In this document: positions 17,741 through 43,696 of the stretch, piece after piece | Numbering within the stretch: position 1 is the stretch's first letter | Layout of the letters: each line of letters opens with the position of its first letter | Origin: a virus | IMG/VR virus record: IMGVR_UViG_3300022890_000019 | Location: 1-64,000 of that record | DNA: 64,000 nucleotides | Reading direction: 5' to 3' (one strand) | The notes under the pieces: generated by a model | The model's input: the letters and a program-made list of their open reading frames with translations, nothing else | Database searches by the model: none | Told to the model about the DNA's origin: nothing | Position numbers and translations under genes: made by a program

Positions 17741-17960
17741 TAGTGTAGGAATAGACATAGACGCAATACCTAAAACAAAAAACTCTAATGATATGATAGA
17801 TACAGATAGGTATTGTACTATCTTTCACCTTTTGATGAAGTGGGAGACAGATATGAGTCCTTTCCTCTTACGTATCTACAATAAGTTTACCGAACAATCA
17901 CAACACTTAATATTAAAAGATAACATAATACAACTATGGATACAGAAACAAAACCAGTAA
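17727..17960 (+). CDS. Hypothetical protein
   Basis: 77-aa ORF overlapping its neighbours. Confidence 0.5.
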   Translation: MDLFSSVGIDIDAIPKTKNSNDMIDTDRYCTIFHLLMKWETDMSPFLLRIYNKFTEQSQHLILKDNIIQLWIQKQNQ

Positions 17961-18193
17961 TATTTATTGATGACAGTCTAATGCTTCCTGACAACAGTCA
18001 GTGGGAAAAAAGATTTGAAGTAAAATCAGAAACCTCAGACAGAGTTTATATAGTAGCTCAGAACAAACAGAAAAGACACTGGGCATGCAGCTGTCCAGGC
18101 TGGAAGAGATACCGTAAATGTAAGCATCTTCAAGAGATAGGATTACCTATCAATGAACAACCTCATGAAATAGAAATCAAATCAGCATATTAA
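17936..18193 (+). CDS. SWIM zinc-finger protein
   Basis: VKSETSDRVYIV...WACSCPGW...CKHL (CxC-xn-CxH). Confidence 0.85.
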   Translation: MDTETKPVIFIDDSLMLPDNSQWEKRFEVKSETSDRVYIVAQNKQKRHWACSCPGWKRYRKCKHLQEIGLPINEQPHEIEIKSAY

Positions 18194-18203
18194 AACCAAT
18201 ACT

Positions 18204-19253
18204 ATGAAAACAAGTTTATATTTTAGTTCTGGTGGATCCGATAAGGAATACCATGTACAGATAGATAATGGAACAGTTACCGTTCAGTATGGTAGAAGAG
18301 GATCTGCTCTAACGCAGCTAACGAAATGTGAAAACCTAGACCCCGTAAAAGCCGAGAAGCTTTATCAGAAAATCATAAGAGATAAGAAAGGTAAAGGATA
18401 TAGTGAAGGAGAGTCAGGTACTATCTATTCATCACCGGTAGATCCTAACCAGACAGGATACCAACCTCAGCTACTTAATGAGATTGACGAACCTACTATG
18501 AGACACCTCCTGGATAATGATGACTGGCTCATACAAGAGAAAGAAGATGGTAGGAATGCAGGACTTATCTATAGAGATGGTAAAGTCATAGCTGCCAATA
18601 AAAAAGGTCTAGCGATCTCTGTACCGACTGATATAGTAAATCCTATAGTAGATATCTTTAAAGTAGATTTTACTCTCTGTGGTGAGCTAGTAGGTGATGT
18701 GTTCAAAGCCTGGGATATCATCAACCATCCTTATATCTCTCATACTGTTCCTTACATCAGTAGGTATGAATTCCTTAAAACACATACTGACAAGCTAGGA
18801 GGTAGTAATATCATGCTTACCAAGACTGCTATCACGACACTAGAGAAGCATAACCTGTATAATGAACTTAAAGAGAGAAATGCAGAAGGCATGGTATTCA
18901 AACTTAAACATTCTCTATATAGCCCTGGCAGACCTAATAGTGGTGGAGATCAGCTAAAGTTTAAGTTCACAGCTACCTGCTCAGTGATAGTAGGTAAGAA
19001 GCATGAAGAGAAAAGGTCTGTTATGATGTGGATGTTCGACAAAGGAAATAGGATATTTGTTGGTAATGTTACTATCTATCCTAATCAGGAAATACCAAAA
19101 GAAGGATCAGTCATTGAGGTAAGGTATCTCTATGCTTACCCTAATGGTGGTAGTCTCTTCCAACCTGTATATCTAAATCCTAGAAATGATGTAGAACAGA
19201 TGGAATGTACTATGTCACAGCTAAAGTATAAAGCTGGACTTGTCACTGCTTAG
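18204..19253 (+). CDS. WGR-domain ATP-dependent DNA ligase
   Basis: N-terminal SDKEY...QYGRRG...KKGKGY (WGR); QEKEDG (motif I KxDG), [17 protein letters not shown]; C-terminal OB fold EVRYLYA...LFQP. Confidence 0.85.
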
Positions 19254-30500: not shown

Positions 30501-33500
30501 TCGTAAGTCATCCCTAGATACTTAGAAAGCTCGTTCTCTGCCTTATAGAGGTCAAAGTCCATTACTGGTACTCCATTGCGTAAAGCTACAAAGCGAGTCA
30601 TCCTACGTAAAGCTTCTGCTGTGAAGACGTATTTTTTAAGCTCTGTAAGGACCTGATAGTTTTCTCTTCTCTCCTGCTCACTCTTTATAGCACGTATGTC
30701 TCTGGACAGCTCTTCTATAAGATTCATGTCCGGTGGAGTGTTCTCATCTACCTTTTCAGCTTCAGTAAGTTTTGTCTCTAAAGCTTCTCTCTTAGAAAGT
30801 AAAGATTTGTTGCTGTCAGTATTTTTACTTCTCTCGTTAAGGACCATCTCTTCAGCTACCAGTTCATATACCTGTTCTGCCTCAAAAACTTCTAAGCTGT
30901 TCTGGAAACTTCTTTGTGTATAGATCTTCTCTACTACAGGATGTTCGAAGAATGTAGCTATCTCCTGGTTGCTCTTACCGTCAGCAGTCATTACAGCTAC
31001 CACGGGAACAGCTTCAGCAGTGATACCTAGCCTACCTAATACAAGCTCTTTGGCATTATCTAAGGCTACCTGCATCCAATTACCTAAATTGATAAATGGA
31101 GATGTGCTCCACTGCTCTTCGTCAAACAGTGAGAGGTTTCTTAACCCCGGAGCATTATTTCTGATAAAGGTCTTTCCTAGCTGTGCCAGGTAAGAGACTC
31201 CTGAGAGAGACATGGCCAAGATACCTATAGCCTTGTTACCTTCACTAGCAGTTTGACTACTATCAAGGTAAGAGGCAAAATCATTATCTCTTCCATACTT
31301 TCTTTTCTTTTTATCTACAAGTTCCTTTAAGCCTTTTACATCTGACTTAATAAATATCTTACTAGCATTAGCAGGGTCCTGGTATACATTGTCTATCTCA
31401 TCAAGGATAGCGTTACGAGCACCACCCTCTCCTTCGATAGCTAACTTACCATCAGCAAACTCTCTCATATATACCGTTAACTGGTCAATATCCTGGTCAG
31501 CATTGTTACGGATGTTCATCTCTACAGGAACATAAGCTGTGTTACCATTGTCATTGATAAAAGCTGTGATCTCTAATATAGAAGCACTGCCTAACCTATC
31601 TGCAGGTACACGACCTGAATATACTTTTAGAGACTCTTTGAAGTTTCTAAAGTAAGACAGTGGATCTTCTGGACTGTTTCTAAATATAGGAGAACTCTCT
31701 TTGTTGATAACAGAGCCACCTTCAGCTAAAGTCTGTAAGAAGTCTATAAACTCATCATCGTTTAGGTTACGTACATTCCAGGATAACACTTCTCCATTAG
31801 CTTCTGCTTCTATAGTAAAGACATCGTTAAGAGTTTCATCATTCTTTATACCAAACTCTCTCATGTAAGGATAAGGCATTACCGTCTGTCCTCTCTGAAT
31901 ACCTTCATTGCCAGCAGTCATATCTTTTAAGTCTGCAGGAGTATATCCGAGATCTATAAGGTCTTCTACTGACTCTATAGTGCTATTGGTAAACCGTTCT
32001 ATCTCTTGTAGAGTATAAGGAATCCCATTCTCATAATAAAGCTGATAACCATAGGAAGAAGACTGGTTTACACGTAAGCCTTTAAAAGAGGTACGTATAG
32101 CATTGTCGTTTACAAAACTCCTATAAGCCTGTTTTAACTTCTGTGCTACTTCAGGAGAATGTATAATGCCAGGGTTGTTGATAACATTGTTGATAAGGTC
32201 AGTGTATCCTGTGATAAGACCCATCTGACGTATAGCCTGTAAGCCTCTCTCTCTGAGGAAAGAAACAAACTTCTCTATATCCTGTTCGTTAAAGGCTGCT
32301 TCTGGTTTGTTAGCCTCTATACCCATCAAAGTATTTATCCTAGCCTTACTCATAGTATAAAGCTCTTCTTGTAATATCCTTATCCTCTTACCTCTGTTTA
32401 GGTTACTAGCACCTATGCCCATATAGGATAGATTCTGTGAAGGAGGAGCCTGTCTTTGTACCTTGTTAGTCTCTTGGTATGGATTTAACACTATACGCAG
32501 AGAAGAGTTGTCAAAATCTCTTGCTATGAGATCTTTCTCTTCAGAAGAGTAAGGATCATACATGTTCACATAGTTGACAGTCTGCTTCTCTATAGTCTCA
32601 TCAGCAAATCCTCTTGGAGTACGAGCCTTTATCTCTTCAGAGAAGTTACTCTCTTCTACGATCCAGTCTCTTAGGTTCCTAAATGCTTTCTGTGCATCCC
32701 TGCTACCAGCATGACCTGTAGCTTCATAAAGTTCTTTGAATTTAGCATAGAGGTCTATATCATAGTTCTCAAAGTCTTTTCTCATAACCTTTGTGACATG
32801 ATCTAATAGATCTTTTTGCATCTGACGTACAGGAAGTGTCTGTTCGTAGGTCTGAGAGCTGAAAAAATTCATAGACTCTTTTTCCTGGTACTGATCACCA
32901 TACTGAAAATCCATACGATTATCCAGAGTCTTGACTCTTGTCTTGTCAATAGGACCATACTGATAATCTATACCACTTTTCTCCATAAAAGATTCCCAGA
33001 GCATAAACCCATTCACACCACCGTCATCATTTTCTATCCATTCACCGGTCGTTGCATCTTCTTTGTACATGGTACTAACCATTATCTCCTTACCCATAGC
33101 AGGGAGACCATATTTAGTATTTACTACAAGCTTACTACCACCAGTTGCTTTAGATCCTGATCTCTTAACCTTATCAGCAGCATCTTTATGGTTCTGTACA
33201 TTACCAAAGGCAAACTCTCCTACCGCATTGTTAACGATATGGTATGCATAGAAGTGAGCTTTGTAGACAGGATTCCATATTATATTCTCTGTAGTAGTTG
33301 TGACTGTGATAGGAGTCTCGGAAACACCATAGCGATTTGCTGAAATAGACATCTCTTCCATGTGCTCTTCCATCTTCTCTGTATAGAAGTAACCCATCTT
33401 ACCTTCTATAAGGGTTTTTACGTCGTTTTGTTGACGATATCCTATTTGTGATAGCTTACCTGCATATTCCCTATATAGTGGAAAGAACAGCTTATCTCTT

Positions 33501-36500
33501 TCAGTCTTGTTTAGTAAGGCAAACCTTTCTCCATTGTTAGAGAACTTCTGATAGTTGTCATGGTTATAGATAGCTTCATATCCAGGTACCTTAAACAGTA
33601 TAGAATTACCGAGTGTAACAGTATTACCATCTAAGAAGTAATCTTTGTTCTTACGTAGTCCAGAACGCATTAGGTCTATAGCCTGCTCATCGGTGAGAGT
33701 CTTAGAGAAAGATTCTAGGCTTTTAGGATTAAAGTTCTTTAAGTCTTTAACAGACCATAGCTCTCTAGGAAATACTTTGGTAAGGTTGTTAGCAGGTATC
33801 TCTCTGGCAAATTTACCCTGGGACATCTGCATCTCTCTGTTAGCTCTCTCAAATTCTATAGCGATACCATGGCTTATCATCTTCTCATCTACATTAGCTG
33901 AGGTGATATTACCATTAGAGTCTCTATCTATGTTTATCAGTCTTCTTCCCTTTCCAAAGGAGAAGTCAGTATTAGTAATATATGTTAGCTCTTTATCAGC
34001 TATATTAGTCATAGTAAGAAAGATATCCTGAAGCTTATCAGTAGACTTACGTATACCTTCTATGAAATTAGCAAGGTTTATAGTAGCTAGATCTTTAGAA
34101 CCAGGCTTTACAATACCTCTATTACCTACACGCAGTCCATTACCTATAGTGAGGCTTCGTATACGGATACCTTTAGGATCAGCTATCCAGTTAGTCCATT
34201 TGCCTTTAGTATTCTTCCAGATAGAGTTATCTAGTATTTCTTTAGGCATATTATTGATCTTATCAGTAAGCCACGCAGAACCATCCCCGAACATATCAAA
34301 GACCCAGGACTTCATCTTAAATCCCCAGGCTTTAGTACCATCAGGTCTATTGGAGAAGAGATCGGAGTCTATACCCTTATTATATACTTCCAGTGCTGCT
34401 ATCACACCAAAGGCATTATAATAGTCTACAGGCTTATAAATCTTAACATCACTCTTAATAGTCTCTACGTTGTTACCTGCAAAGACTTTCTCAAAACCAT
34501 CTATAGTGCTATCGGTGATGTTCATCTTCTTACGAAAGGAACTCATCTCTTGGTTGAAAGGTACAGATAGTTCTTTTATCTGCTTAGCTTCTTGCTTTTT
34601 TGCTTCCTCTTCATTAATAGCTTTATTGTCTAGCTTACGCAATATACCCTTGTTGATAGTCTCTATCTTGTCGAGCATGGTAAGGTTAGAAGACGCAGAC
34701 CAGAACATATTCATAAAGGTCTCTGCCAGGAAGGTATTAGTGTTCTCTAAGTTATACTCAGGAGTACGTTTGTTCAGCTCTACCCTAGCACCTTCATGGT
34801 GCATGTTGTTATACATATTGTAGATAGTCTGGTCAGTGACGTTCTTGAGTCCTATAAAGTTCTTGATGTATGTGAGTATCTTATCTCTACTGTCGTTGTC
34901 ATGGAAAGCCTCAGTGAAAGAGATCTTACCGTCAGTATAAGAGATGACTTTTATCTTCTGCTTGTTCTTTACATAGGAGATACCACTAGAAGTAACTTCA
35001 AACTCTGCATTCTTACCACTGCCTAGTCTATCTTTTACATGCTCTCTGAAGCTCCGGGTGTCTTTGTCATATAGTGTCTGAGAGATGCCATCGATAATCT
35101 CTTTCTTCTTGTTATCAAAAGTATTCTCAAAGGAGTTAACAATATTATATACCGTCTCGTCTCCTGACTTCTTAGACTCTATAAAAGAAGACTTAGGCCT
35201 CATAAAAGAAATATTATAGGATATCAGTGAGTTGATAAAGTCTGAGAGGTCACTCTGGATATCTAGCTTTAGCTGAGACACATTGCTTCTACCGTCACTC
35301 TTGATAAGCTCATCGATACTATTTATCCTATTGCTTAATGAAGGTTTACCTGTGAAAGCTTCAAAGAACCTATGATAGAAACTAAGGATGTTACTACCCT
35401 TATAGGTGTCAAGTCCTGCCTCAGTAGCTAAGTTATAGAGTTCCTGAGTAAAGGCCTCTACTGGATTCAGTGAAGGATCTTTTAGTAGCCTGTTAGCTAC
35501 ACGCATCCCTGCATCTTTCAGAGACTTCTCAAGGTCCTTACTGTTCACAAAGGCATATGCATCTTTAGTATCCCACTCGTTGCGTACCAATCTCCCATTG
35601 CTAGAATAATAGTACTGATGAAACCTAGTAGCATTTATCTGCATCTTCATAAAGTCACTCTTAGTCTGGTCAGGATTTGCATCATCCCCGGCTCTGTTAT
35701 ACTGAGTAGACTGCTTATTCCATTTGTAGAAGCGACCTGTCTCTGGGTTATACCCTGGCATAAGCCTTACTATAAAAGAAGTGAATATTTCTTGGTTAGC
35801 TAACCTAAGCCACCCTAGATTTCTTCTCTCTACTATAGAGAGTTTCTTTGCATCGTCATCAGTGATCTGGCTGTAAGGGATACCTACAGAGGTAAGCTCA
35901 TCAGCAAACTCATTACCATACTCTTCATACTCTTTCTGTACATCTTTGATAGCTTCTGTCATAGGTACTACCTTGTCAACAGATAAATCAGAAGAGAAGA
36001 AAGTATATTGTATTACTGCATCAGCTACAGCATTGAGATACTTGTTAATGTCATTACCAAATACCTTATATTGATTATTGAAGATCTCTATATAGTCAGT
36101 GTTAGGAGTATCATCTTTAGCGAATCCATCTTCTGCCTTATGGTTAAAGTTATCAGCCTGGTATTCGTCAAGCTCACTCTCTCCTTCCATTCTTACAATG
36201 TCTCTACCACCATCATGTACTGGTTGTACATTTCTATAGTAACCGTGATCCATCTTATAAAATAGCTCATCGAGAGTATTTACCCTCTTAGTATATCCAT
36301 TAAAGAGCTTGTTTACAAAGTCTACAAATCTACTCCATAGTCCTTGCTTAGGCTTTACAGAGTCTAAGTTTAGTCCTGAATAGCCATAGTCTCTTGCCAT
36401 CCACTCTGTAAGATAGTCTTCAGTAGCATTAGGAAGGCCTAACAGTTCCTTTGTGGCATTATAGAGCCTCTGACGAGAGTTCTCATCAATTAGGTAGTCG

Positions 36501-39500
36501 AATACCAGATGAAAGAATTCGTGCTTAGGAGTAGTGTATTTAATACCTTTTTTATACAAGGCTAGTTTTATCCTACCATTATACATTAACCCGTGGATGT
36601 CCATACCGTCAAACTGAAGGTTAGGAGTAATATCATTCTTTACCTGTTCCCAAATAGAAGGGTGAGCTATCTTTTCGAATAGTTCTCTTACCGCAGCTAC
36701 AGTTACAGTACGTGGCTCTATGTTATCAGTCTTTATTTCAAACCTAGGTCTCTTAGCACCTTTCTTACTTGCAGGTCCATCTGAACTTTTAGGAGTCTTA
36801 TTAGTAATTTCTTCGTTAACGTCAACAAGTCCATCAGTAGATATATTTACATATGGAAAGTGTATAGCCTCTGCACTGGTAACGATATTCTCCATCTCAC
36901 TAGGTGATAACTCTCTGGTACTTGTGCTTAGGTCTATAGTATACGGCTGGTATAGTTTGTCTATCTGTAGTCTTAGGTTCGCTGCCTCACCGGTAACGTC
37001 ATCTTTATATAGCTCTGTCACCTGGTCCAGGAATGCATCTAGTACGTCAAGCTTTATCTGTGCATCGGTACGTACATTGTCTGAATCTAAAAGGAAGATA
37101 TCTCTGTTTACCCTTACATTGACTCTACCACCTACCTTTTCAAAGTAGGTACCAAAGAAGTCGTTAAGAGCTTTGTTATTAGTAATGATGCTTAGGTTTT
37201 GTGCGAAGACATTCTTCCAGAACATCCTGTTAAGTTCACTACCAAAGAAGCTATCCTGTTCAGAGGCACGGATATCTTTTAGGCTCTGCTTGTCCTCTTT
37301 GATCTTCTCATGCATCCTCTTAGAATTCATCTTCCCAAGGTTGTTAGTCTTAAAGATCACATAGGCCTCGTTAGCAGTACTGTTTACATCACCTTCAGAG
37401 AACTTATACTTTAAGAGTAGTCCTACCCTACCACTACCATAGAATGTCTGTACTATCTTATCAGAGAAAGTAACCATTTGTCCGGAAAGTGTATTCTCTA
37501 TATGAGCCATAAACTCAGCAAAAGTTCTAAGAGGACCTTTGTTATAGATTACATTACCCTCGTTGATATCATTTTCTAGTATGATCTCTCCAAAGCTGTA
37601 CTCATCGGTATTAGAGTCATATCCTTTCTTTCTCAGAGAAGCCTTATAGTAGTTAACCTCTTTGTTAGCTGTATGGTGTTCTGGGCTTAGCTCCATGCCT
37701 GTATAGCTACTGTCAAAGCCTTCAGATATCTGTCGCTTTATATTCTCTAAGGGCTGTGAGTAATCTCTTATCTGCTGCTTAGCGTATCCTGCATCAGTCT
37801 CCCCCAGAGAAGCTATATATTGATTTCTTTGTAAGATCTCTCTTTCATTACTTGTAAGAGACTCTTCGTTGATAGCACTAACCTTAATAGCTAGCACGTT
37901 GTCAAAGTTCTTCCAGGTACCAGTATTTCTATCTTCCATCAATGCTGACTTTAGATATACTAGCTCAGAAGTTACCTTTCTCTTATAGACCATGTTTAAG
38001 ATAGACACTCTATCCTTACGTAGCTGATCCATATTTACATCAGCTGACGAAGTGTTAAAGACACTATAGATAGTACCCCAAAGCTTGTTACCGTTAAGCC
38101 ACGCCTTAGCTTGTCCTGTGAAGAACGTCTTACCACTCTCTATGTCATCAAGGTCAGTAGTCTCTTTAGGGCCACTGCGAAGGGTATACTCTTTCTCAAA
38201 AGTGTTAAGATCTATCTGCTTGCCACCGAGGTATATTTCATACTCTACCACACCATCAGTAGTTTTCTCTATAATAGAATCTATGATATAGAAGTTTCCT
38301 GTAGAGACTTCATCAGCTACAGCACCTTTAACGATGCTTGGCTTTCCTGGGTACTCAGTAAGATACTTGTTAGTAGTATATCCGGGAGTAGGTGCAGGAG
38401 TCTTGACTATAGGATCCAATATTCCTAGAGCTACCTGTGACTCTTTACCAAAAGGTTCTGCTAAAGTCTTGGTAAGCTCATTATAAGCTTTATATTTCTG
38501 TCCTGTAGCAAAAGAGTCTGCTGTCAGGTCTTTCTGGTTCGTTACACTCTGGGTAATCTTAAAGAAGGCACCAGAATCATCTCCTTTGTTGATAGTATAG
38601 ATACCGTTCTTACGGAACTTGTGAAGGATAGGAGTAGCTATCTTAGTCTTTACCTCTTTAGGTTTCTCCTGTGGCTTGATAGCTGACTCTATACCTATGT
38701 TCTTTAGATACTCATTCATATCATTATAGATATCAGAAGTATCAAGTACCTCTTGCTGACCATCTATCCACCATGAAGGCCTCTGTGTAAGATTTAACCC
38801 TTCTGAGCCTACCAGACCCATAAAGCGAGAAGCTCTCCCTACAGCTGTATAAGCACTGTTAGAAGCTACAAATTCTTTTAACTCTTTACCATTGTATTTA
38901 TATCCCCAGCTATTGAGGTTTACTGCCATGTATACTTCATCTTTACGAAGACCTTGGATGCTTGGAATCTTCCTAGGCATCACATTGGTTGCAGGATCAG
39001 ACATCAACACATATACCTGTCCCTGGAATTCTGTCTTTAGGTTACCATGCTTGTCAAAGAGCTTTTCAACTATCTTCCTAGTTTCCTCTTTGGTGTTAGG
39101 ATCTTTTAGGAGTGCATCTATCTGTTCTGAGTTTAAGAAGACAAGAGCACTGCTTACACTCTCTGGCCTGGACAGTGCATCACTGATAACACTATCTACA
39201 GTATTATAATATTTTCCTCCCTCTCTTCTAGTTATCCCTACTGCTTCATATTCGTTGACATACACTTCAGGATAACCCATAGAGTTATTGTCTAGTCTGT
39301 TCCTAAACGCTTCTGCTAGTCTTTCGATAACAGGATTGCGAGTGGTGAACTTAAACATCACCGGGAACGTACGAGCACCCGTCTTCTGTGCATAGGAGAT
39401 ATTGTTCTTAGCATCAGGAGGCATCATCTGTGAAGCATCACCGAGCCATATGATCTGAAAGCTAGGATCGGTAGTATCTTCATTATAGTTCTTATTGATA

Positions 39501-42500
39501 ACTTGTAGGTTGTCTTTACTAAGCAGAGAAGCCTCATCGACTATCATACCTTCATACTGATTAGGGTTTTGTACCTTACCACCTATGAAGTCTGCCATAG
39601 AGATATTATCAAATACCTGATCAATACCTTCTAAAGAACTGCTTAGCGTATTTAGTACCTCCTGGGTATGGTGTACCAATAAATATTTTCTTTTAGGATC
39701 TTTTTTAAGCTGGTCTCTGATAGCTATAGCTTCAGGAATCATATGCTGACTCTTACCACCTCCAAAGTCTCCTCTCATAAAGATAGAGTTAGCCATAAAG
39801 ATATCTTCTTTCTCTGACACCTTCTTTATATGTTCACTGTTGTTAAATTCTACCTCCCTGACGATCTTGAGCACATCAGCATTATGTCCTAGCAGTTGGT
39901 TTACCACCATATTCACACCCATCATCTGTTCGAAGGTAGAGATATTCTGAGCCGTTACATTGACTTTAGACCTTGCACCCTGAAGAGTATTGATGCTCTC
40001 TCCATTAAGAGCCATGAGGAAGTTTACCAGGTAGGTATATCCTTCATGAGTCTTATATACATCATTGACACTATTTACCTTTAACAGATTATAGTAATAG
40101 TTAAGAGTCTCTCCTACCTTAGTATAGTCAGGAGCATTGAAGTAAGCTGAGTTGTATCTGAACTTCTTAGCAGCAAGTAGCCTGTTTATAAAGTCATAGT
40201 TCACTAGCTGGTCACTGGCACCCTGCATCTTTACAAAAATGTCATGTAGCACCTTCTCACTGTTTAACAAGTCTGCCATCTCCTCTACACCCGGAGGAGT
40301 GTTTTTATCCTTTTGTTCCTGGGTAAGGTCTTTAACATCTTCTAACAGTTTCTTAATATCAGGAACGAGCTCTTCCATCATGGTAGGATCCATCTCATAG
40401 AAGAGAGTCACTACCTGCTTCTGAGCATTGATATGTCCTTGACGTAGCTTGATCTGGAAAAACTTACTAGCTTCTTTAGCTAGCTGTACACTGTTACCCA
40501 TAGTATCGAGATCTATCAACATCTCACTTACTTGCTCTCTGCTATTCCTTAGCTCTGACTCACTGACATAATATTTATATGCAGGTAGCTCTTTATTCTT
40601 TGAAGGTTCTAGCTTAGGATGATCTGATCCTTTAGAGAAGAAGAACATTCCTTTATCAGCAGTCTTCAGAGCATCTCTAACAGCATTGATAGACTTAATC
40701 AAAGAGGCTGCAGTAGACGGGTTAAGGTCAGTACTTGTCTGCTCCCTGAAGTTATCCACCCTAGCCCTCATCTCTTCGAGAAACATCATAGGTACATTGT
40801 CATCATTGCTTAGCTGTCTTATCTTCTCTGTATTCTCATCTACAAAAGCATTCTCTGATAGCTGTGTAATAGCATCTATAGTTTCCCTGGTAGTATTAAG
40901 CTGATCTTTTACATCTTCATTGGTAGGATCAGTAGCATATTCATCGTTAAGTTCTTTCTCAAGTTGTTCTAGCTGCTTCTGATATTTAGCACTTTCTCTT
41001 ATTGCCTGGATCTGCTCTTCATTACCCTGTGCAGGGATACCAAAAGTAATTTCTTTAGAGAGAGCTATTATTGCCTTGCAGACACCCTCAAACCCCTTCA
41101 TAAGGTCTTTCTTTGACTTTAGCTTAGAAGCTTCACCTACGGTAGTAAATAGGTCTTTGTGGGTAACTACAGTCTCATTGTTACTCTTTACAATCTTCTC
41201 TTGCTTTTCTATTTCCTGAGTCTGGTATTCTGTGAGCTTCTGTGAGAACTCTGTAGCTTTCTCATAGGTATCTAAATGATCCAGGATATTCCTTTTGTAT
41301 TTAGTCTGGTACTTCTCTGACTTCCGAAACTTATCGGTAAGCTCTGTACCTTCATTCTTAAAATGTTCATCAGAGACATTCTTAGCATAGAGTAAAGCAC
41401 TATACTTCTCTCTGATAGCTTCATTATATTTCTTACTGTATTTTGTGTCTGCACCTTCAGGAACAGTATACTCTTGTATAGCTTGAGAGACAACACCTAG
41501 CTGCTCATCGATCTTAGCTATCTGTGCAGCATCTTCCTCGGTAGCCTCTTCCTTATTCTCTAATGCTAGCTTCTGCTCAGCAAGACCTTTATAGGATACG
41601 ATAAGATCAGTAAGTTCTTTCTGCATGAGCTTACTCCTACCTATAGCCTCAAGTACTATTGGGTTGTCAATACCAAAATCTTTAACGATACCTTCAAACA
41701 TATCCATAGACTGCATCATACCCTGATATGCAACATCATTCATAGAACCATCAACACTCTCAGGATTTTTTATTTCTCCTTCAGTAGAGATGTAATTTGG
41801 ACCTAAAGACTCTTTGTTATATAGATCTTGAGTAGCCTTTCTTAGCTTATCCATCTCACCAGTTACACCATAATAACCCATAGTATAATCTGCCATAGGA
41901 TTCTTGCCGGCACCCATAGTGAGTCCCATTGTAATACCACCCATAAATCCTGCTACAGTAGACTCTAGTACATTATCTCCTATCCTATTAGATAAGTTCT
42001 CTAAGTAACTCTTATTAGCATCTACAGGACCAAATAATCCTTTTCCTGGTAATAATCCATTCTCTCCATCATATCTTATCTGATCATGGAATGTCTGCAT
42101 AGAGTTCTCTATCATCTGCTGAAAGAATTCTTCTGTTCCTTCTTCACCACCTGCTAAGATAGTTCTAGCAAATATAGTTTTCCCCTCAGAAATAGCTTTG
42201 ATAAAGCCGTGCAACCATAATCTTTTTTGTGTCTTTGTACCTTCTTTAAGATTCTTTATACCAAATTTTTTCATTACCTTTTTAGCTGCAGTTAACCTTG
42301 CTGCCTTATCTACAAAATAACCTGATCCTCTAGCAATAACATTTCTGCCTATAAATCCTTCTGTAAATGTCTCAGAAGCTACCTGTATAGGATACATCCA
42401 AGCGATATCAGCTTCCTCTATCCCCATATCTCTAGCAGTCTGTACAAAGTGATGGCCACTCATTAATCCAAAGACTCCAAAAGATGTCCAGGTAGAAGCA

Positions 42501-43696
42501 AAAGATTTAAACCCATTAAAATTTCTTAATCCCTGTGCTAGTCCTTTTTGTATTACTAATTGGGCAATTACACTACCCATTACTGAAGAGAATCCTTCCC
42601 AACTATTAAACATTCCCTGATTAGCACGTAGAGATTTTCCAAACAGTGCTTTATTCTGAATAGTAGTTTCTCTTTTAGATCTATCAGCCCATTTATTTAA
42701 TCCATAATAATCACCACCAAAAAATAGTTCATTTAGATAATTACTACCCATTTCATCAGCAGTCTCAAAAGTAGCAGCACCACTAGAAAACATATTATAT
42801 GCTTGAAATATTCCATCTTTTATAGCATTCCTTTGAAAAGGAGCAGGCCCCATAGCACTAACAATAGAACTTCGAGTGACTCTAGGATCTTCTACTGGTA
42901 CTTCTAACATAGTAGGTGTACCATCTGGGCCCGGAGCATATATTTTAATAAAATCATTCTTATCTGTAAGAAATAGAGGAATAGTTTTATCAGAATCATC
43001 AGGATCTTCTACATTAACATCTATATCACCATATGTACCTTTCTCTTGAAGAGCATTCATATATGCTACATAACCATCCTTTTGTTCCTGGGTCCTCATC
43101 TTAGGATCATAAACAACATCATCTTTAGTTCCAACAAAGAAATTATCAAGAGCAGCTAACCCTCTTAATACAGTATGTACTCTATCAGATACGGTAGGTT
43201 TCTTTTTTATTATCTTTTTGCCAAATCTGTCAATATAATATCCTTTAGCAAATACTTCTTCTTGAGGACTAAGTAGATTCTGTCCAAACTGATTAACACC
43301 TATAGTTGGAGAGATATAAGTTTGCTCTAAAGAATTTCTATCAATAGACTTAATTCCCATCTCTTGTTTTAAGAAGGTATCATTACCATAAGCAATCCAT
43401 GGAGTAACAAAGTGATCAATCCCATCTTGATGATCTAAATAACCCGTAGAAGCCATATCGTAGATCTTATCAAAGTTCTTTGGATCTATCATAGGAGTAT
43501 CTACAGTATACTTTTCTCTTGCCTTTTCTCTATCCCAGAGAGTCACTACTGCATCATTCTCCTTTAGTGATTGTCTTATTTGATCTGCTGACCATTGAAA
43601 GGCATACATTGGGAAATAATCAAGTGTTGCTTTTGGTGTTGCTTCTTCTTCTCCACCATCACCTATACTATTAACATTTTCAGTATCGTTATTCAT
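24551..43696 (-). CDS. Giant virion polyprotein (6381 aa): ejection-type N-terminus, SF1 helicase-like domain, zincin, crAss-type DNA-dependent RNA polymerase, second zincin
   Basis: GDFGGGKS / IVDEAS / LGDASQ / SIQG / YTAVGRA; HEFFH...E; GRVP...RNNADQDID; HEFQH...E; follows the cargo genes as in crAss-like phages. Confidence 0.85.
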   Translation of the reverse strand: MNNDTENVNSIGDGGEEEATPKATLDYFPMYAFQWSADQIRQSLKENDAVVTLWDREKAREKYTVDTPMIDPKNFDKIYDMASTGYLDHQDGIDHFVTPWIAYGNDTFLKQEMGIKSIDRNSLEQTYISPTIGVNQFGQNLLSPQEEVFAKGYYIDRFGKKIIKKKPTVSDRVHTVLRGLAALDNFFVGTKDDVVYDPKMRTQEQKDGYVAYMNALQEKGTYGDIDVNVEDPDDSDKTIPLFLTDKNDFIKIYAPGPDGTPTMLEVPVEDPRVTRSSIVSAMGPAPFQRNAIKDGIFQAYNMFSSGAATFETADEMGSNYLNELFFGGDYYGLNKWADRSKRETTIQNKALFGKSLRANQGMFNSWEGFSSVMGSVIAQLVIQKGLAQGLRNFNGFKSFASTWTSFGVFGLMSGHHFVQTARDMGIEEADIAWMYPIQVASETFTEGFIGRNVIARGSGYFVDKAARLTAAKKVMKKFGIKNLKEGTKTQKRLWLHGFIKAISEGKTIFARTILAGGEEGTEEFFQQMIENSMQTFHDQIRYDGENGLLPGKGLFGPVDANKSYLENLSNRIGDNVLESTVAGFMGGITMGLTMGAGKNPMADYTMGYYGVTGEMDKLRKATQDLYNKESLGPNYISTEGEIKNPESVDGSMNDVAYQGMMQSMDMFEGIVKDFGIDNPIVLEAIGRSKLMQKELTDLIVSYKGLAEQKLALENKEEATEEDAAQIAKIDEQLGVVSQAIQEYTVPEGADTKYSKKYNEAIREKYSALLYAKNVSDEHFKNEGTELTDKFRKSEKYQTKYKRNILDHLDTYEKATEFSQKLTEYQTQEIEKQEKIVKSNNETVVTHKDLFTTVGEASKLKSKKDLMKGFEGVCKAIIALSKEITFGIPAQGNEEQIQAIRESAKYQKQLEQLEKELNDEYATDPTNEDVKDQLNTTRETIDAITQLSENAFVDENTEKIRQLSNDDNVPMMFLEEMRARVDNFREQTSTDLNPSTAASLIKSINAVRDALKTADKGMFFFSKGSDHPKLEPSKNKELPAYKYYVSESELRNSREQVSEMLIDLDTMGNSVQLAKEASKFFQIKLRQGHINAQKQVVTLFYEMDPTMMEELVPDIKKLLEDVKDLTQEQKDKNTPPGVEEMADLLNSEKVLHDIFVKMQGASDQLVNYDFINRLLAAKKFRYNSAYFNAPDYTKVGETLNYYYNLLKVNSVNDVYKTHEGYTYLVNFLMALNGESINTLQGARSKVNVTAQNISTFEQMMGVNMVVNQLLGHNADVLKIVREVEFNNSEHIKKVSEKEDIFMANSIFMRGDFGGGKSQHMIPEAIAIRDQLKKDPKRKYLLVHHTQEVLNTLSSSLEGIDQVFDNISMADFIGGKVQNPNQYEGMIVDEASLLSKDNLQVINKNYNEDTTDPSFQIIWLGDASQMMPPDAKNNISYAQKTGARTFPVMFKFTTRNPVIERLAEAFRNRLDNNSMGYPEVYVNEYEAVGITRREGGKYYNTVDSVISDALSRPESVSSALVFLNSEQIDALLKDPNTKEETRKIVEKLFDKHGNLKTEFQGQVYVLMSDPATNVMPRKIPSIQGLRKDEVYMAVNLNSWGYKYNGKELKEFVASNSAYTAVGRASRFMGLVGSEGLNLTQRPSWWIDGQQEVLDTSDIYNDMNEYLKNIGIESAIKPQEKPKEVKTKIATPILHKFRKNGIYTINKGDDSGAFFKITQSVTNQKDLTADSFATGQKYKAYNELTKTLAEPFGKESQVALGILDPIVKTPAPTPGYTTNKYLTEYPGKPSIVKGAVADEVSTGNFYIIDSIIEKTTDGVVEYEIYLGGKQIDLNTFEKEYTLRSGPKETTDLDDIESGKTFFTGQAKAWLNGNKLWGTIYSVFNTSSADVNMDQLRKDRVSILNMVYKRKVTSELVYLKSALMEDRNTGTWKNFDNVLAIKVSAINEESLTSNEREILQRNQYIASLGETDAGYAKQQIRDYSQPLENIKRQISEGFDSSYTGMELSPEHHTANKEVNYYKASLRKKGYDSNTDEYSFGEIILENDINEGNVIYNKGPLRTFAEFMAHIENTLSGQMVTFSDKIVQTFYGSGRVGLLLKYKFSEGDVNSTANEAYVIFKTNNLGKMNSKRMHEKIKEDKQSLKDIRASEQDSFFGSELNRMFWKNVFAQNLSIITNNKALNDFFGTYFEKVGGRVNVRVNRDIFLLDSDNVRTDAQIKLDVLDAFLDQVTELYKDDVTGEAANLRLQIDKLYQPYTIDLSTSTRELSPSEMENIVTSAEAIHFPYVNISTDGLVDVNEEITNKTPKSSDGPASKKGAKRPRFEIKTDNIEPRTVTVAAVRELFEKIAHPSIWEQVKNDITPNLQFDGMDIHGLMYNGRIKLALYKKGIKYTTPKHEFFHLVFDYLIDENSRQRLYNATKELLGLPNATEDYLTEWMARDYGYSGLNLDSVKPKQGLWSRFVDFVNKLFNGYTKRVNTLDELFYKMDHGYYRNVQPVHDGGRDIVRMEGESELDEYQADNFNHKAEDGFAKDDTPNTDYIEIFNNQYKVFGNDINKYLNAVADAVIQYTFFSSDLSVDKVVPMTEAIKDVQKEYEEYGNEFADELTSVGIPYSQITDDDAKKLSIVERRNLGWLRLANQEIFTSFIVRLMPGYNPETGRFYKWNKQSTQYNRAGDDANPDQTKSDFMKMQINATRFHQYYYSSNGRLVRNEWDTKDAYAFVNSKDLEKSLKDAGMRVANRLLKDPSLNPVEAFTQELYNLATEAGLDTYKGSNILSFYHRFFEAFTGKPSLSNRINSIDELIKSDGRSNVSQLKLDIQSDLSDFINSLISYNISFMRPKSSFIESKKSGDETVYNIVNSFENTFDNKKKEIIDGISQTLYDKDTRSFREHVKDRLGSGKNAEFEVTSSGISYVKNKQKIKVISYTDGKISFTEAFHDNDSRDKILTYIKNFIGLKNVTDQTIYNMYNNMHHEGARVELNKRTPEYNLENTNTFLAETFMNMFWSASSNLTMLDKIETINKGILRKLDNKAINEEEAKKQEAKQIKELSVPFNQEMSSFRKKMNITDSTIDGFEKVFAGNNVETIKSDVKIYKPVDYYNAFGVIAALEVYNKGIDSDLFSNRPDGTKAWGFKMKSWVFDMFGDGSAWLTDKINNMPKEILDNSIWKNTKGKWTNWIADPKGIRIRSLTIGNGLRVGNRGIVKPGSKDLATINLANFIEGIRKSTDKLQDIFLTMTNIADKELTYITNTDFSFGKGRRLINIDRDSNGNITSANVDEKMISHGIAIEFERANREMQMSQGKFAREIPANNLTKVFPRELWSVKDLKNFNPKSLESFSKTLTDEQAIDLMRSGLRKNKDYFLDGNTVTLGNSILFKVPGYEAIYNHDNYQKFSNNGERFALLNKTERDKLFFPLYREYAGKLSQIGYRQQNDVKTLIEGKMGYFYTEKMEEHMEEMSISANRYGVSETPITVTTTTENIIWNPVYKAHFYAYHIVNNAVGEFAFGNVQNHKDAADKVKRSGSKATGGSKLVVNTKYGLPAMGKEIMVSTMYKEDATTGEWIENDDGGVNGFMLWESFMEKSGIDYQYGPIDKTRVKTLDNRMDFQYGDQYQEKESMNFFSSQTYEQTLPVRQMQKDLLDHVTKVMRKDFENYDIDLYAKFKELYEATGHAGSRDAQKAFRNLRDWIVEESNFSEEIKARTPRGFADETIEKQTVNYVNMYDPYSSEEKDLIARDFDNSSLRIVLNPYQETNKVQRQAPPSQNLSYMGIGASNLNRGKRIRILQEELYTMSKARINTLMGIEANKPEAAFNEQDIEKFVSFLRERGLQAIRQMGLITGYTDLINNVINNPGIIHSPEVAQKLKQAYRSFVNDNAIRTSFKGLRVNQSSSYGYQLYYENGIPYTLQEIERFTNSTIESVEDLIDLGYTPADLKDMTAGNEGIQRGQTVMPYPYMREFGIKNDETLNDVFTIEAEANGEVLSWNVRNLNDDEFIDFLQTLAEGGSVINKESSPIFRNSPEDPLSYFRNFKESLKVYSGRVPADRLGSASILEITAFINDNGNTAYVPVEMNIRNNADQDIDQLTVYMREFADGKLAIEGEGGARNAILDEIDNVYQDPANASKIFIKSDVKGLKELVDKKKRKYGRDNDFASYLDSSQTASEGNKAIGILAMSLSGVSYLAQLGKTFIRNNAPGLRNLSLFDEEQWSTSPFINLGNWMQVALDNAKELVLGRLGITAEAVPVVAVMTADGKSNQEIATFFEHPVVEKIYTQRSFQNSLEVFEAEQVYELVAEEMVLNERSKNTDSNKSLLSKREALETKLTEAEKVDENTPPDMNLIEELSRDIRAIKSEQERRENYQVLTELKKYVFTAEALRRMTRFVALRNGVPVMDFDLYKAENELSKYLGMTYEEFMQGAEWNAESHIENFKKLDNKYSRLISSQFDEANNEAEKLLDYELEIAKAINISEFVRRTHFKDYYNEINNQREVASKTFLEDNKVIWDYFAPNYLKGQLNNVFNYAKQFYTFKSGMQQLFLDKFFKRSFTGRKFNIAVPLQDIDGNYFSPESNYETVALDNVEGRTLFVRQFPQFHDLIRSMSTMNFGDASRAIQAIGIDYTNEFHDAIKNNKFIANLVLQGQEGKEYIRLADAFNLSEQQLSDLAIEFDRLPKYLKELYRVNQLINTGFNYRKGSINEIMGTEHYYGEDGLAMSLEMTKAEMEWMPKNMNRLTDLVERFTKWVQHKEGMSSFLTRKARDLGIFPETIMKRKDFKRFTANFTARIKNDQDLFGNAFEKYDYEYLIGERGGFDTVKDMTSTMEIVKMSPEKLDLLLDNQQVPLSYVRGHSYANMNVDRLEGLYTTEEGTLIRALRIQPTNVVWVKADLSEEQIEQAKENYQIKIAKQQEEKNQKAQYKIKKGDSEFIATVEGELVREIEGSEEAQKFVNKSMSALSKYVGKEGSMTRYTMIDFKKHSLGRLSTKAAQRWMDALKEKVTGVPITEGTTESLKGASGMFDGDGIHMNVEKFSFTMPVHEFQHFRNGIMIMNDPATWNTIKNTIIDSANNGDKLIEPIRDHVVRKLKEHNRPTTDGDVTHEVLAILSQIINRNTAMKVMLKESIRDFFTDNTSLDALLNIATSINTLVNNSLHDLFFPFRKKLDKIFTEGKVSDFLLETGRQTYGTDPVNYDIWQLDDAYRSLEEGNKFYLQEGVNTTKDFAAIVNPYSEYGHTMGELNTEEFVRTTLHKMKSYTDDAGNYVFHSLDKTFAYPNTMTDEQLEAAIEKDIVPHINSFEVSYKNNVQNFINLVIDQKETIYDAAKKAFGNVYSEKAVTDMAFYLGLGDKIETVMKYSDLKNSDIKAVRALYNSAFEGFDPLITIHGIEDDGTVDLSILDVTTFSLQDKVPFAPANRNRLLGTMMTDNKFIEAGGTWSNSAYDIRRAILSMSIMNMMKASGGKVKFRGMGVLEIQPSNVKSYMMLDIQDMFSNMNVLSQQDEWLNNLVNDDVKDIFTDKKISDSTKYEQSFVRRFQMYLKKVMDDEGYRKYGYGYVNRAESLSTLFMDRNTTVHDQVKALRALQKDLRGRNRDKKEKDHEDLLVSMSILELESYGAVFFKNSIKDMNKFEKNLVPIHNVRDDLLQMLVSKGRLVNSIVVDRYMKIHNQIYDKAQKVAKNYIALHPQVAAETLIKDEGSVYYKHLFKHTTLTLEKDQKVGLKTYKKGETVPIMLPILDFNNPKHNEDDKALMEVVWKTFRQRTIDNWYHSRTSDIKGKDVFGNSKISKAEVAKEFDESVEKGTMVIISKGLNETLLSGNFKAAWDRMGQRFVNYDEFIDDNLNDKSRMAFTSGMNTISNVFASQMNSKDKLYEQAGLLYTKNGLTVADLSKNMLASTNLEKIINYYTLEGIRTEEYENRYMPAFNDVDAVYGYFESTKNSKDFMVNNRRFAEMFSNRLAMKKNEDTSVKITLPGGVTVDVKTFARATLSAFSMISLGYKWTIGAKSGIWNEMSEQINALAASIANIGLDESQKIYLPTTGDVNKARYEVATNFKKARRLGAMFQLVNRTERDLIDSPWLNVANKGNILNDQWAHITNWASDAEARLVGMAGWMIHEGSWDAYSLNEKGDIQYDIKKDERYYNEDGTQTKEQEVLVEGPNGLKNRLKDQGLMEEDATKVDRGHDHTLASEQLKWYGDKFIIGSMDNTAKWLLGNDYLGAAASQFRVFSADKIWNAGLFASPRKTSFGAGFKAIQLENGEWVTQRDWIEIEGAWQSFVGAVQGIANMRNEGLDSWWKNQTPMRRLNLARTVIKTAVFSLLIALSGAVVGKDNDKKLIKLNWMYKDLNMMMISYDWFLNPFPVTSILLDIVDATFGPKKVKDILKYRTAIGSISDPFPSLGIRDVKESDY

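What the first reader, a model, noticed from the sequence alone, without database searches (positions are those of the whole stretch)
38825..39790. Superfamily-1 helicase motif set embedded in the virion RNAP polyprotein
Seen: Walker A GDFGGGKS (39749-39772), Walker B IVDEAS, motif III WLGDASQ, motif V SIQG and motif VI YTAVGRA, in the order of RecD/Dda-like SF1B helicases. Inference: an ATP-driven motor ejected together with the RNAP could pull the genome into the cell, help open promoters or strip host proteins from the DNA.
Basis: partly seen in the sequence, partly recalled or inferred. Interest (0 to 1): 0.72.

Follow-up and report, generated by a model that had tools for sequence, protein, structure and literature searches.

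The report
Helicase domain inside phage RNA-polymerase giant protein
A salt-lake relative of the crAss gut phages carries a real but very diverged DNA-helicase-type motor inside the 6381-residue protein that also holds its virion RNA polymerase, and a gut crAss lineage made the same kind of fusion at a different position, which suggests that the two enzymes work together.

Summary
All five motifs are at the stated places in a 6381-aa ORF (24551-43696, minus strand). They belong to a ~435-aa domain (aa 1215-1650, nt 38747-40054).

Evidence that this is a superfamily-1 helicase:
- A family profile hits RecD, Dda-like and Pif1 proteins.
- The ATPase residues (Walker A Lys, Walker B Asp-Glu, motif III Gln, motif V Gln-Gly, motif VI Arg) are invariant in eight homologues that share only 18-35% identity.

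The host protein is a crAss-type virion RNAP polyprotein. Its DQDID aligns onto the DFDID of phi14:2 gp66 and of gut phage cr50_1.

phi14:2 and three other crAss-like genomes lack the domain. cr50_1 and 25 further related IMG/VR contigs carry a canonical Dda-like helicase at the C-terminus of their RNAP giant, which GenBank already labels "DNA helicase". So the fusion recurs at a different position.

Function is inferred only. Most likely the domain is an injected ATP-driven unwinder that supplies the single-stranded template gp66-type RNAPs prefer. DNA import, defence evasion and RNAP recycling are not excluded.

I rate this a new variant of a known theme (polyvalent injected proteins). The scan noted this same stretch once more in an overlapping window of the same genome.

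The parts
24551..43696 (-). Giant ORF of 6381 aa (P0001), the crAss-type virion polyprotein that holds the helicase domain
   Evidence: The identical protein is seen on 13 public contigs, the longest 90,958 nt.
38747..40054 (-). SF1 (Dda/RecD-like) helicase domain, aa 1215-1650: N-terminal helical part plus two RecA-like halves
39926..39940 (-). Q-motif-like STFEQ (aa 1253-1257), about 55 aa upstream of the P-loop
   Evidence: E and Q are conserved in the 7 sequences that cover this part.
39749..39772 (-). Motif I / Walker A, GDFGGGKS (aa 1309-1316; Lys1315)
   Evidence: G95, G100 and K101 of the domain are invariant in 8 of 8 homologues.
39527..39544 (-). Motif II / Walker B, IVDEAS (aa 1385-1390)
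   Evidence: D173, E174 and S176 are invariant in 8 of 8.
39428..39448 (-). Motif III, WLGDASQ (aa 1417-1423), the SF1-specific GDxxQ
   Evidence: G205, D206 and Q209 are invariant in 8 of 8. It aligns to GDxxQLxP of RecD and Dda.
39200..39220 (-). Family-specific GGKYYNT (aa 1493-1499) on a beta-hairpin of the second RecA-like half
   Evidence: G279 is invariant and Y282 is conserved in 7 of 8. Strands 267-271 and 274-283 in the model.
38930..38962 (-). Motif V, SIQGLRKDEVY (aa 1579-1589)
   Evidence: Q367, G368 and V374 are invariant in 8 of 8.
38831..38851 (-). Motif VI, YTAVGRA (aa 1616-1622; Arg1621, the presumed arginine finger)
   Evidence: R407 is invariant. It aligns to YTAvTRa of RecD and Dda-like chains.
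36509..36523 (-). First zincin-type HExxH (HEFFH, aa 2392)
   Evidence: HExxH is present at the equivalent place in all 5 giants. The region is homologous to the cr50_1 giant around its HEAFH (hhalign E 9e-6).
29297..33799 (-). gp66-type RNA polymerase region (aa 3300-4800) with catalytic DQDID at nt 31484-31498 (aa 4067-4071)
   Evidence: hhalign to phi14:2 gp66: E 4.9e-5, prob 68%, with off-diagonal controls at E >= 0.065. DQDID aligns onto DFDID of gp66 and of cr50_1. DxD[IV]D is present in all 5 giants.
28634..28648 (-). Second HExxH (HEFQH, aa 5017)
   Evidence: Present in 4 of 5 giants. Weak hhalign to phi14:2 gp65: E 0.006.

Best explanation
The stretch encodes a genuine but very diverged superfamily-1 helicase/translocase module of the Dda/RecD/Pif1 type (SF1B-like). 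It occupies aa ~1215-1650 of a 6381-aa crAss-type virion polyprotein. The order of parts is: N-terminal ~1200 aa, helicase, zincin, two-barrel RNAP, zincin.

Shown: the fold, the motif set, and strict conservation of every ATP-binding and ATP-hydrolysis residue across distant homologues. The domain is therefore most likely an active nucleic-acid-dependent ATPase.

Inferred: like the gp65-67 proteins of phi14:2, the polyprotein is packed in the capsid, ejected ahead of or with the DNA, and possibly cut by its own zincins. Once in the cytoplasm, where ATP is available, the helicase loads on the entering genome and unwinds it. This hands the co-injected RNAP the single-stranded template that gp66-type enzymes use efficiently; they barely transcribe duplex DNA in vitro. 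On this reading it acts as a built-in promoter-melting or template-supplying factor for early transcription.
For: Fold and family:
- AF2 model with two RecA-like halves.
- The family profile hits RecD, Dda-like and Pif1 chains in PDB.
- All 7 members hit Pfam AAA_30 and 6 hit AAA_19. PHROG 'Dda-like helicase' at E 1e-5.
- hhalign to T4 Dda: prob 91%.
- The nearest stand-alone proteins carry RecD/Pif1 Pfam sets.

Likely activity:
- 15 invariant columns fall on motifs I, II, III, V and VI in 8 sequences at 18-35% identity.
- The domain is a conservation island (26-32% identity) above its flanks (21-24%).

Context:
- The RNAP region is homologous to phi14:2 gp66, with the catalytic motifs aligned.
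- The portal, capsid and structural genes are crAss-like.

Link to RNAP:
- An independent fusion of a canonical Dda-like helicase to the C-terminus of the RNAP giant exists in cr50_1 and in 25 further IMG/VR loci. In 21 of the 26 loci, DFDID lies on the same open frame as the helicase.
- gp66 transcribes single-stranded or denatured DNA well and duplex DNA poorly, and no early promoter motif is known (paper 10.1101/2020.03.07.982082).
Against: - No biochemical data exist. Virion packaging and ejection are inferred from phi14:2 and crAss001, not shown for this phage.
- phi14:2 itself, cr4_1, cr53_1 and Dulem virus 41 have no such domain. A helicase is therefore not a general requirement of crAss virion RNAPs.
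- The window's own sequence is below Pfam's curated cut-offs (13-14 bits against 24-27).
- No clear pin (1B) or SH3 (2B) accessory domain is seen. Only about 35 residues separate motifs Ia and II, and the motif IV arginine is not conserved. It could therefore be a translocase rather than a strand-separating helicase.
- The model is of moderate confidence (pLDDT 65.8).
Confidence: 0.55

Rival explanations
1. DNA-import motor. The helicase sits directly after the N-terminal ~1200 aa, which include Gly-rich hydrophobic segments and long helices and may form an envelope-spanning ejection conduit. Anchored there, it would translocate along one strand and reel the genome into the cytoplasm.
For: - Its position is immediately C-terminal to the N-terminal part in all 6 giants or fragments that show this part: helicase start ~aa 1140-1490, and the L004/L005 ORFs.
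- Crassvirales cargo proteins are thought to form a tunnel (review PMC10136315).
- Enzyme-driven genome entry is known for T7 and N4 (my own knowledge; N4 ejectosome papers are listed).
Against: - In the cr50_1 lineage the helicase is at the far C-terminus, after the RNAP and not next to any N-terminal conduit part.
- Homology of the N-terminal part to phi14:2 gp67 was not detectable (E 0.08).
- SF1B enzymes track single strands, whereas the entering genome is duplex.
Confidence: 0.18
2. Counter-defence module of a 'polyvalent protein'. The injected helicase would strip or outrun host proteins on the incoming DNA (restriction enzymes, nucleoid proteins, RecBCD-like nucleases), as proposed for helicase-like domains in other injected giants.
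For: - The architecture fits the polyvalent-protein theme: giant size, two zincin motifs and unrelated enzymatic domains (Iyer et al. 2017, PMC5512222).
- Dda is known to displace proteins from DNA (my own knowledge).
Against: - The helicase-like domains in described polyvalent proteins are mostly SWI2/SNF2 coupled to a methylase, and no methylase is found here.
- The recurrent partner here is the RNAP.
- The domain is conserved at a fixed position rather than shuffled as conflict modules usually are.
Confidence: 0.12
3. RNAP-associated recycling or RNA-release ATPase. Like HelD or Upf1/nsp13-type SF1 enzymes, it would clear stalled RNAP, or peel the transcript off the template, because transcription of single-stranded DNA leaves RNA:DNA hybrids.
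For: - Viral RNA-virus SF1 helicases and SLFN helicase domains also match.
- One family member hits Pfam Viral_helicase1.
Against: - Profile and hhalign hits are best to the DNA helicases RecD, Dda and Pif1.
- HelD's RNAP-inserting N-terminal and clamp-opening domains have no detected counterpart.
- The second fusion (cr50_1) is a canonical Dda-like DNA helicase.
Confidence: 0.08
4. Catalytically dead or purely structural domain, or one that works only late in the producer cell, for example during loading of the giant protein into proheads.
For: - The sequence is below curated Pfam thresholds, the motif IV arginine is lost, and the inter-motif loops are of low confidence.
- The giant protein is made late, when ATP is available in the producer cell (timing taken from phi14:2).
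Against: - Every residue needed for ATP binding and hydrolysis is invariant over deep divergence. That is not expected for a decayed enzyme.
- Nothing links SF1 helicases to prohead loading.
Confidence: 0.07

Closest known systems
T4 Dda, Deep-Sea Helicase 9, RecD/RecD2 and Pif1 (SF1B DNA helicases; Pfam AAA_30 + UvrD_C_2)
   Same: - Two RecA-like domains.
- Motifs I, II, III (GDxxQ), V (QG) and VI (T-A-x-x-R-A) in the same order.
- Best profile, hhalign and structural matches.
- Compact core of ~340 aa, like Dda.
   Different: - Only 11-16% identity.
- The window's sequence is below Pfam's cut-offs.
- The Q-like motif lies ~55 aa from the P-loop rather than ~25.
- No recognisable pin (1B) or SH3 (2B) domain.
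- The motif IV Arg is not conserved.
- It is embedded in a 6381-aa protein instead of standing alone.
Giant protein QOR58058.1 of gut crAss-like phage cr50_1 (MT774375 / NC_055868; Suoliviridae, Cohcovirus), annotated 'DNA helicase; VOG0377'
   Same: - One polypeptide joins a zincin motif, a gp66-type RNAP (DFDID) and an SF1B helicase.
- Its zincin and RNAP parts are colinearly homologous to the window's protein (hhalign E 9e-6 and 3e-4).
   Different: - Its helicase is C-terminal (aa ~4250-4740), after the RNAP, and is a canonical Dda-like enzyme (AAA_30 E 3e-22; 27% identity to T4 Dda).
- The window's helicase lies before the first zincin and is no closer to cr50_1's helicase than to T4 Dda. 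The two fusions are therefore probably independent.
phi14:2 gp67-gp66-gp65 (virion proteins; gp66 is the crystallised virion RNAP)
   Same: - Same gene position at the end of the structural block.
- RNAP homology with aligned catalytic motif.
- Fusion of the three proteins into one polyprotein in some phages is on record.
   Different: No helicase domain in gp67 or anywhere in the phi14:2 genome.
Polyvalent proteins of phages and conjugative elements (Iyer et al. 2017, PMC5512222), including the N4 virion RNAP fused to zincin peptidases
   Same: - Giant injected multidomain proteins.
- Zincin peptidases as proposed processing domains.
- Modules that 'jump-start' transcription, and helicase-like ATPases as common parts.
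   Different: - The described helicase-like parts are mostly SWI2/SNF2 coupled to a methylase, with UvrD-like SF1 only in a few actinomycete plasmid giants.
- The RNAP there is T7-like, not two-barrel.
- crAss-like phages are not covered by that paper.
Poxvirus core enzymes packaged with the viral RNAP (VETF, NPH-I, NPH-II) and TFIIH XPB
   Same: An ATP-driven nucleic-acid motor delivered or assembled with an RNAP to allow initiation or termination on duplex DNA. This is a functional analogy from my own knowledge.
   Different: These are SF2 enzymes and separate polypeptides. No homology is implied.

Membership tests
Superfamily 1 helicases | Core of two tandem RecA-like domains | tested here: met
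Superfamily 1 helicases | Motif I GxxxxGK[ST] and motif II DExx | tested here: met
   GDFGGGKS and IVDEAS. G, G, K and D, E, S are invariant in 8 of 8 homologues.
Superfamily 1 helicases | SF1-type motif III (GDxxQ) rather than SF2 SAT/TAT | tested here: met
   WLGDASQ, with G, D and Q invariant. Aligned to GDxxQLxP of RecD and Dda.
Superfamily 1 helicases | Motifs V and VI with the arginine finger in the second RecA domain | tested here: met
   SIQG...V and YTAVGRA. Q, G, V and R are invariant. Aligned to the motif V-VI segments of 9kwf and RecD.
Superfamily 1 helicases | Motif IV with conserved Arg (Y/F-R) | tested here: inconclusive
   The candidate stretch is FKFTTRNP. YR is present in only two homologues, P0008 and L005.
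Superfamily 1 helicases | Nucleic-acid-dependent ATPase, translocation or unwinding activity | not testable with these tools
   Needs biochemistry.
SF1B Dda/RecD-like helicases (Pfam AAA_30 / UvrD_C_2) | Sequence match to the family models above curated thresholds | tested here: inconclusive
   The window's domain scores 13.5 bits against a 27-bit cut-off for AAA_30. However, all 7 family members match AAA_30 at E <= 0.1 (best 3e-8), the family profile hits RecD and Dda in PDB at E 2e-4 to 6e-4, and hhalign to T4 Dda gives prob 91%.
SF1B Dda/RecD-like helicases (Pfam AAA_30 / UvrD_C_2) | Accessory 1B pin and 2B SH3-like domains | tested here: inconclusive
   Only ~35 aa lie between motifs Ia and II. 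A conserved beta-hairpin (aa ~1481-1497) lies in the second half. The loops are of low confidence. No separate accessory domain is evident.
SF1B Dda/RecD-like helicases (Pfam AAA_30 / UvrD_C_2) | 5'-to-3' translocation polarity | not testable with these tools
   Needs unwinding assays with 5'- and 3'-tailed substrates.
crAss-type virion RNA polymerase (phi14:2 gp66-like), for the host protein | Catalytic DxDxD with Ile/Val at position 4 | tested here: met
   DQDID at aa 4067. D-x-D-[IV]-D is present in all 5 giants. It is aligned onto DFDID of gp66 and cr50_1 together with the upstream R-[IV]-P motif.
crAss-type virion RNA polymerase (phi14:2 gp66-like), for the host protein | Detectable homology to gp66 beyond the motif | tested here: met
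   hhalign of aa 3300-4800 against gp66: E 4.9e-5, prob 68%. The 11 other region-by-protein pairs gave E >= 0.0062 (next best C-terminal part vs gp65). Against the cr50_1 giant: E 3e-4. This is modest support.
crAss-type virion RNA polymerase (phi14:2 gp66-like), for the host protein | Two double-psi beta-barrel fold | tested here: inconclusive
   The AF2 model of aa 3560-4400 failed (pLDDT 44, pTM 0.28) and was not searched.
crAss-type virion RNA polymerase (phi14:2 gp66-like), for the host protein | Presence in virions and ejection into the host | not testable with these tools
   Inferred from phi14:2 and crAss001.
Polyvalent proteins (Iyer et al. 2017) | Giant polypeptide joining unrelated enzymatic domains with zincin-like peptidase(s) | tested here: met
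   Helicase, RNAP and two HExxH sites conserved in homologues. The zincin fold itself was not tested.

The most novel reading that the evidence does not exclude
The helicase is the missing duplex-opening factor of crAss-type virion RNAPs. On this reading, a covalently linked SF1B motor loads at the entering genome end and feeds single-stranded template to a promoter-independent two-barrel RNAP. Two lineages would have solved the same problem by independent fusions, while helicase-less crAss phages borrow a host activity or a separate phage activity.
Probability: 0.3. Interest if true: 0.75.

Novelty: new variant of a known kind. Interest (0 to 1): 0.55.

Why it matters
It is not known how crAss-type virion RNAPs start transcription on an incoming duplex genome. 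The only enzyme studied, phi14:2 gp66, prefers single-stranded DNA and has no known early promoter.

A conserved, apparently active helicase welded to the RNAP in two separate lineages gives a concrete and testable candidate for the opening step. It also supplies a natural construct for in vitro reconstitution.

It adds an SF1B helicase plus two-barrel RNAP combination to the catalogue of injected polyvalent proteins. It also shows that very diverged enzymatic domains remain hidden in the 'giant proteins' of Crassvirales.

Tried and rejected
Searches that found nothing:
- Single-sequence searches of the domain found nothing in PDB, nothing in the phage collection by tblastn, and no close relative in IMG/VR.
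- The RNAP region gave no PDB hit, no tblastn hit and no PHROG or Pfam hit.
- The 7-sequence alignment was too diverse for the search for related loci. A 3-sequence alignment worked.

- The AF2 model of the RNAP core was too poor to use.
The contexts of the two short homologues, P0007 (330 aa, lacks motif VI) and P0008 (417 aa, all motifs), could therefore not be checked. I cannot say whether stand-alone or split forms exist.

Readings rejected:
- P0003 looked like a split form with an N-terminal helicase, but it is simply cut by a contig end.
- P0006 (916 aa) matched only through a short repeated peptide and is not a helicase.
- Homology of the N-terminal 1200 aa to phi14:2 gp67 was not detectable.

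Sequencing runs:
- I tried to use natural variants to test purifying selection. Contigs of four salt-lake runs were identical to the window over every part they covered, so there was nothing to count.
- No RNA holder was listed among the sequencing runs.

A tree to prove that the two fusions are independent was not attempted, because similarity between the two helicase types is confined to motifs II-IV.

Full report
**What is there**

The region lies inside one uninterrupted ORF on the minus strand, 24551..43696, of 6381 aa. The exact protein has been seen on 13 public contigs, the longest about 91 kb. The window is the first 64 kb of a 74-kb IMG/VR virus record rated 87% complete.

- Walker A GDFGGGKS, aa 1309-1316
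- Walker B IVDEAS, aa 1385-1390
- Motif III WLGDASQ, aa 1417-1423
- Motif V SIQG, aa 1579-1582
- Motif VI YTAVGRA, aa 1616-1622

An ordered, spaced regular expression for the set matched in 0 of 5000 shuffles of the protein.

**Is it a helicase domain?**

The window's own sequence matches library models only weakly:
- Pfam SLFN-g3_helicase and AAA_30 at E 0.03-0.09, below the curated cut-offs
- PHROG 325 'Dda-like helicase' at E 1.1e-5
- No PDB sequence hit

An exhaustive HMMER search of 1.8 billion cluster representatives found only six proteins. A word-indexed search added one more giant, and an IMG/VR scan added another giant fragment, L005.

Aligning eight sequences at 18-35% identity leaves 15 invariant columns. 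They fall on the P-loop Gly/Gly/Lys, Walker B Asp-Glu-x-Ser, motif III Gly-Asp-x-x-Gln, motif V Gln-Gly...Val, the motif VI Arg, one Asn before the P-loop and one family-specific Gly.

Family-level evidence is much stronger than the single sequence:
- Each of the 7 members tested hits Pfam AAA_30 (best 3e-8) and 6 hit AAA_19.
- A profile of the family hits SF1B chains in the PDB: 8bns, a Dda-like chain 9kwf, E. coli RecD, Bacteroides and yeast Pif1, and MERS nsp13.
- hhalign against T4 Dda gives probability 91% and E 9e-7 over motifs I-IV.
- The nearest stand-alone proteins in 5.8 billion sequences carry RecD/Pif1/UvrD_C_2 domain sets, and two are named exonuclease V alpha subunit.

An AlphaFold2 model built on the 7-sequence alignment has pLDDT 65.8 and pTM 0.70. 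It shows an N-terminal helical part and two alpha/beta halves.
- Foldseek puts SLFN11, Dna2, RecD, Dda and RecD2 on top.
- The viral library gives RecD-like, Dda and UvrD-like helicases.

The third criterion, ATPase activity, cannot be tested here.

**Limits on 'SF1B'**

- I see no separate pin (1B) or SH3 (2B) domain. Only about 35 residues separate motifs Ia and II.
- The motif IV arginine is kept in only two homologues.
- The Q-like S-x-[FY]-E-Q motif is unusually far from the P-loop, through a low-confidence insert.
- Polarity and substrate (DNA or RNA) cannot be read from sequence.

The compact core and the best matches favour a Dda/RecD-like enzyme. I treat membership of that subfamily as likely, not proven.

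**The host protein**

The genome is a distant crAss-like phage:
- The portal is 22-24% identical to Crassvirales portals.
- The capsid and structural proteins hit the corresponding PHROGs.
- The giant ORF closes the structural block, as g065-g067 do in phi14:2.

All five full or near-full giants share the same landmarks: helicase, HExxH, D-x-D-[IV]-D and, in four, a second HExxH.

A 4x3 hhalign matrix compared parts of the giant with phi14:2 gp67, gp66 and gp65. Only one clear signal appeared: aa 3300-4800 against the RNAP gp66 (E 4.9e-5, probability 68%). Every other pairing gave E >= 0.0062, the next best being the C-terminal part against gp65.

The alignment puts DQDID exactly on DFDID of gp66 and of the cr50_1 giant, together with the upstream R-[IV]-P...G motif. 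A structure prediction of this core failed.

So 'virion RNAP polyprotein' is supported as to RNAP identity. Packaging, ejection and cleavage are inferred from phi14:2 and crAss001.

**Distribution, and a second fusion**

The helicase is at the same place, about 1140-1490 residues from the N-terminus, in every giant that shows this part. P0003 only seemed to start with it, because its contig ends there.

The family profile finds nothing in the genomes of phi14:2, cr4_1, cr53_1 or Dulem virus 41, and gp67 has no such domain.

In the gut phage cr50_1 (Suoliviridae, Cohcovirus) the profile hit a 4774-aa ORF. That protein, QOR58058.1, is annotated 'DNA helicase; VOG0377' in GenBank. It has:
- HEAFH at aa 1665
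- DFDID at aa 3154
- at its C-terminus (aa ~4250-4740) a textbook Dda-like helicase, with AAA_30 E 3e-22 and 27% identity to T4 Dda

Twenty-six IMG/VR loci, one of them cr50_1 itself, carry this helicase at 89-100% identity, always in frame with at least 1220 upstream residues. In 21 of them DFDID lies on the same open frame.

The zincin and RNAP parts of cr50_1 are colinearly homologous to the window's protein. The helicases sit at opposite ends of the RNAP, and they resemble each other no more than either resembles T4 Dda. The simplest reading is two independent fusions of an SF1B helicase to the crAss virion RNAP. I built no tree to prove it.

**How it most likely works**

Shown: the fold, the intact catalytic residues and the covalent link to an RNAP.

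Established elsewhere:
- gp66 is virion-borne and makes the early transcripts.
- It transcribes single-stranded or denatured DNA efficiently but duplex DNA poorly.
- It has no recognised early promoter.
- Crassvirales cargo proteins are thought to leave the capsid partly unfolded, with or ahead of the DNA.

Inferred: after ejection and refolding, possibly after cleavage by the zincins, the helicase uses cytoplasmic ATP to load on the entering genome and open it for the RNAP.

My confidence, step by step:
- about 0.9 that this is a true SF1 helicase-fold domain
- about 0.75 that it is an active ATPase
- about 0.35-0.4 that template opening for early transcription is its main job

Rivals that remain open:
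- a DNA-import motor anchored to the N-terminal part
- a counter-defence module in the sense of polyvalent proteins
- a HelD- or Upf1-like RNAP or RNA-release factor
- a dead or assembly-stage domain

The cr50_1 arrangement argues against a need to sit next to the N-terminal part. The invariant catalytic residues argue against a dead domain.

**Novelty**

I found no paper that describes a helicase domain in the crAss transcription-block giants:
- The Crassvirales comparative papers mention SF1 helicase only as a replication-block gene.
- The review is silent on the point.
- Figures of those papers are not held, so a drawn domain could have escaped me.

The fusion is not wholly new. A GenBank record already labels the cr50_1 giant as a helicase. 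Zincin-plus-helicase-plus-RNAP giants are the known 'polyvalent protein' theme (PMC5512222).

New here:
- the very diverged helicase family
- its position ahead of the zincin and the RNAP
- its restriction to a small environmental clade (six giants or fragments; this phage is held by many salt-lake metagenome runs of 2017-2019)
- the recognition that the fusion recurs

I therefore rate it a new variant of a known kind, of moderate interest.

**Earlier notes of this scan**

Other first-reader notes on the same genome describe the same ORF, the same helicase stretch, and the zincin-bracketed RNAP. They agree with what I found but are not independent evidence.

Noticed in passing
L015:4826-19150 (-) = MT774375.1 65825-80149: The gut crAss-like phage cr50_1 has a 4774-aa giant with HEAFH (aa 1665), DFDID (aa 3154) and a canonical Dda-like helicase at its C-terminus. 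It is annotated only as 'DNA helicase; VOG0377', so the RNAP part is not named in the record.
   Followed up: yes
L020, L031, L032, L033, L036 (IMG/VR 3300045988 contigs): In 5 of 26 cr50_1-like loci a stop codon lies between the RNAP motif and the C-terminal helicase (open frame only 1220-1350 aa upstream). This could be a split gene, an intron or insertion, or a reassigned stop codon.
   Followed up: partly
L041:6001-12048: In one cr50_1-like contig the frame stays open for 2016 aa from the start of the helicase, instead of stopping after 545 aa. The giant is apparently fused to the downstream large gene.
   Followed up: no
window 38543-38599 (-), aa 1700-1718: A conserved Y-[TR]-I-N-K-G-D-x-x-G-K...[IV]-T stretch lies about 50 aa after the helicase in P0001, P0003 and P0004. 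It may be a small beta-rich (SH3/KOW-like) nucleic-acid-binding add-on. It was neither folded nor searched.
   Followed up: no
window 39017-39061 (-), aa 1546-1560: An insert in the second RecA-like half (LFDKHGNLKTEFQGQ) is present only in P0001 and P0003. It resembles the unit of an unrelated 916-aa tandem-repeat protein (P0006), which is why that protein appeared among the search hits.
   Followed up: partly
window 24554-26146 (-), aa 5851-6381: The C-terminal ~500 aa are the best conserved part of the giant among homologues (34-40% identity), more than the RNAP core (29-36%) or the helicase (26-32%). Their function is unknown.
   Followed up: no
window 38747-40054: The phage is held by at least 24 salt-lake metagenome runs from 2017-2019. 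Contigs from four of them were letter-identical to the window over all covered parts of the helicase region.
   Followed up: partly
window 1-1281 (+), 14679-15407 (+), 17051-19253 (+): On the opposite-strand early block: a DnaB-like helicase cut by the window start, a GH16 glycoside hydrolase, a DUF5131/radical-SAM-like protein and a WGR + RNA-ligase-domain protein (Pfam).
   Followed up: partly
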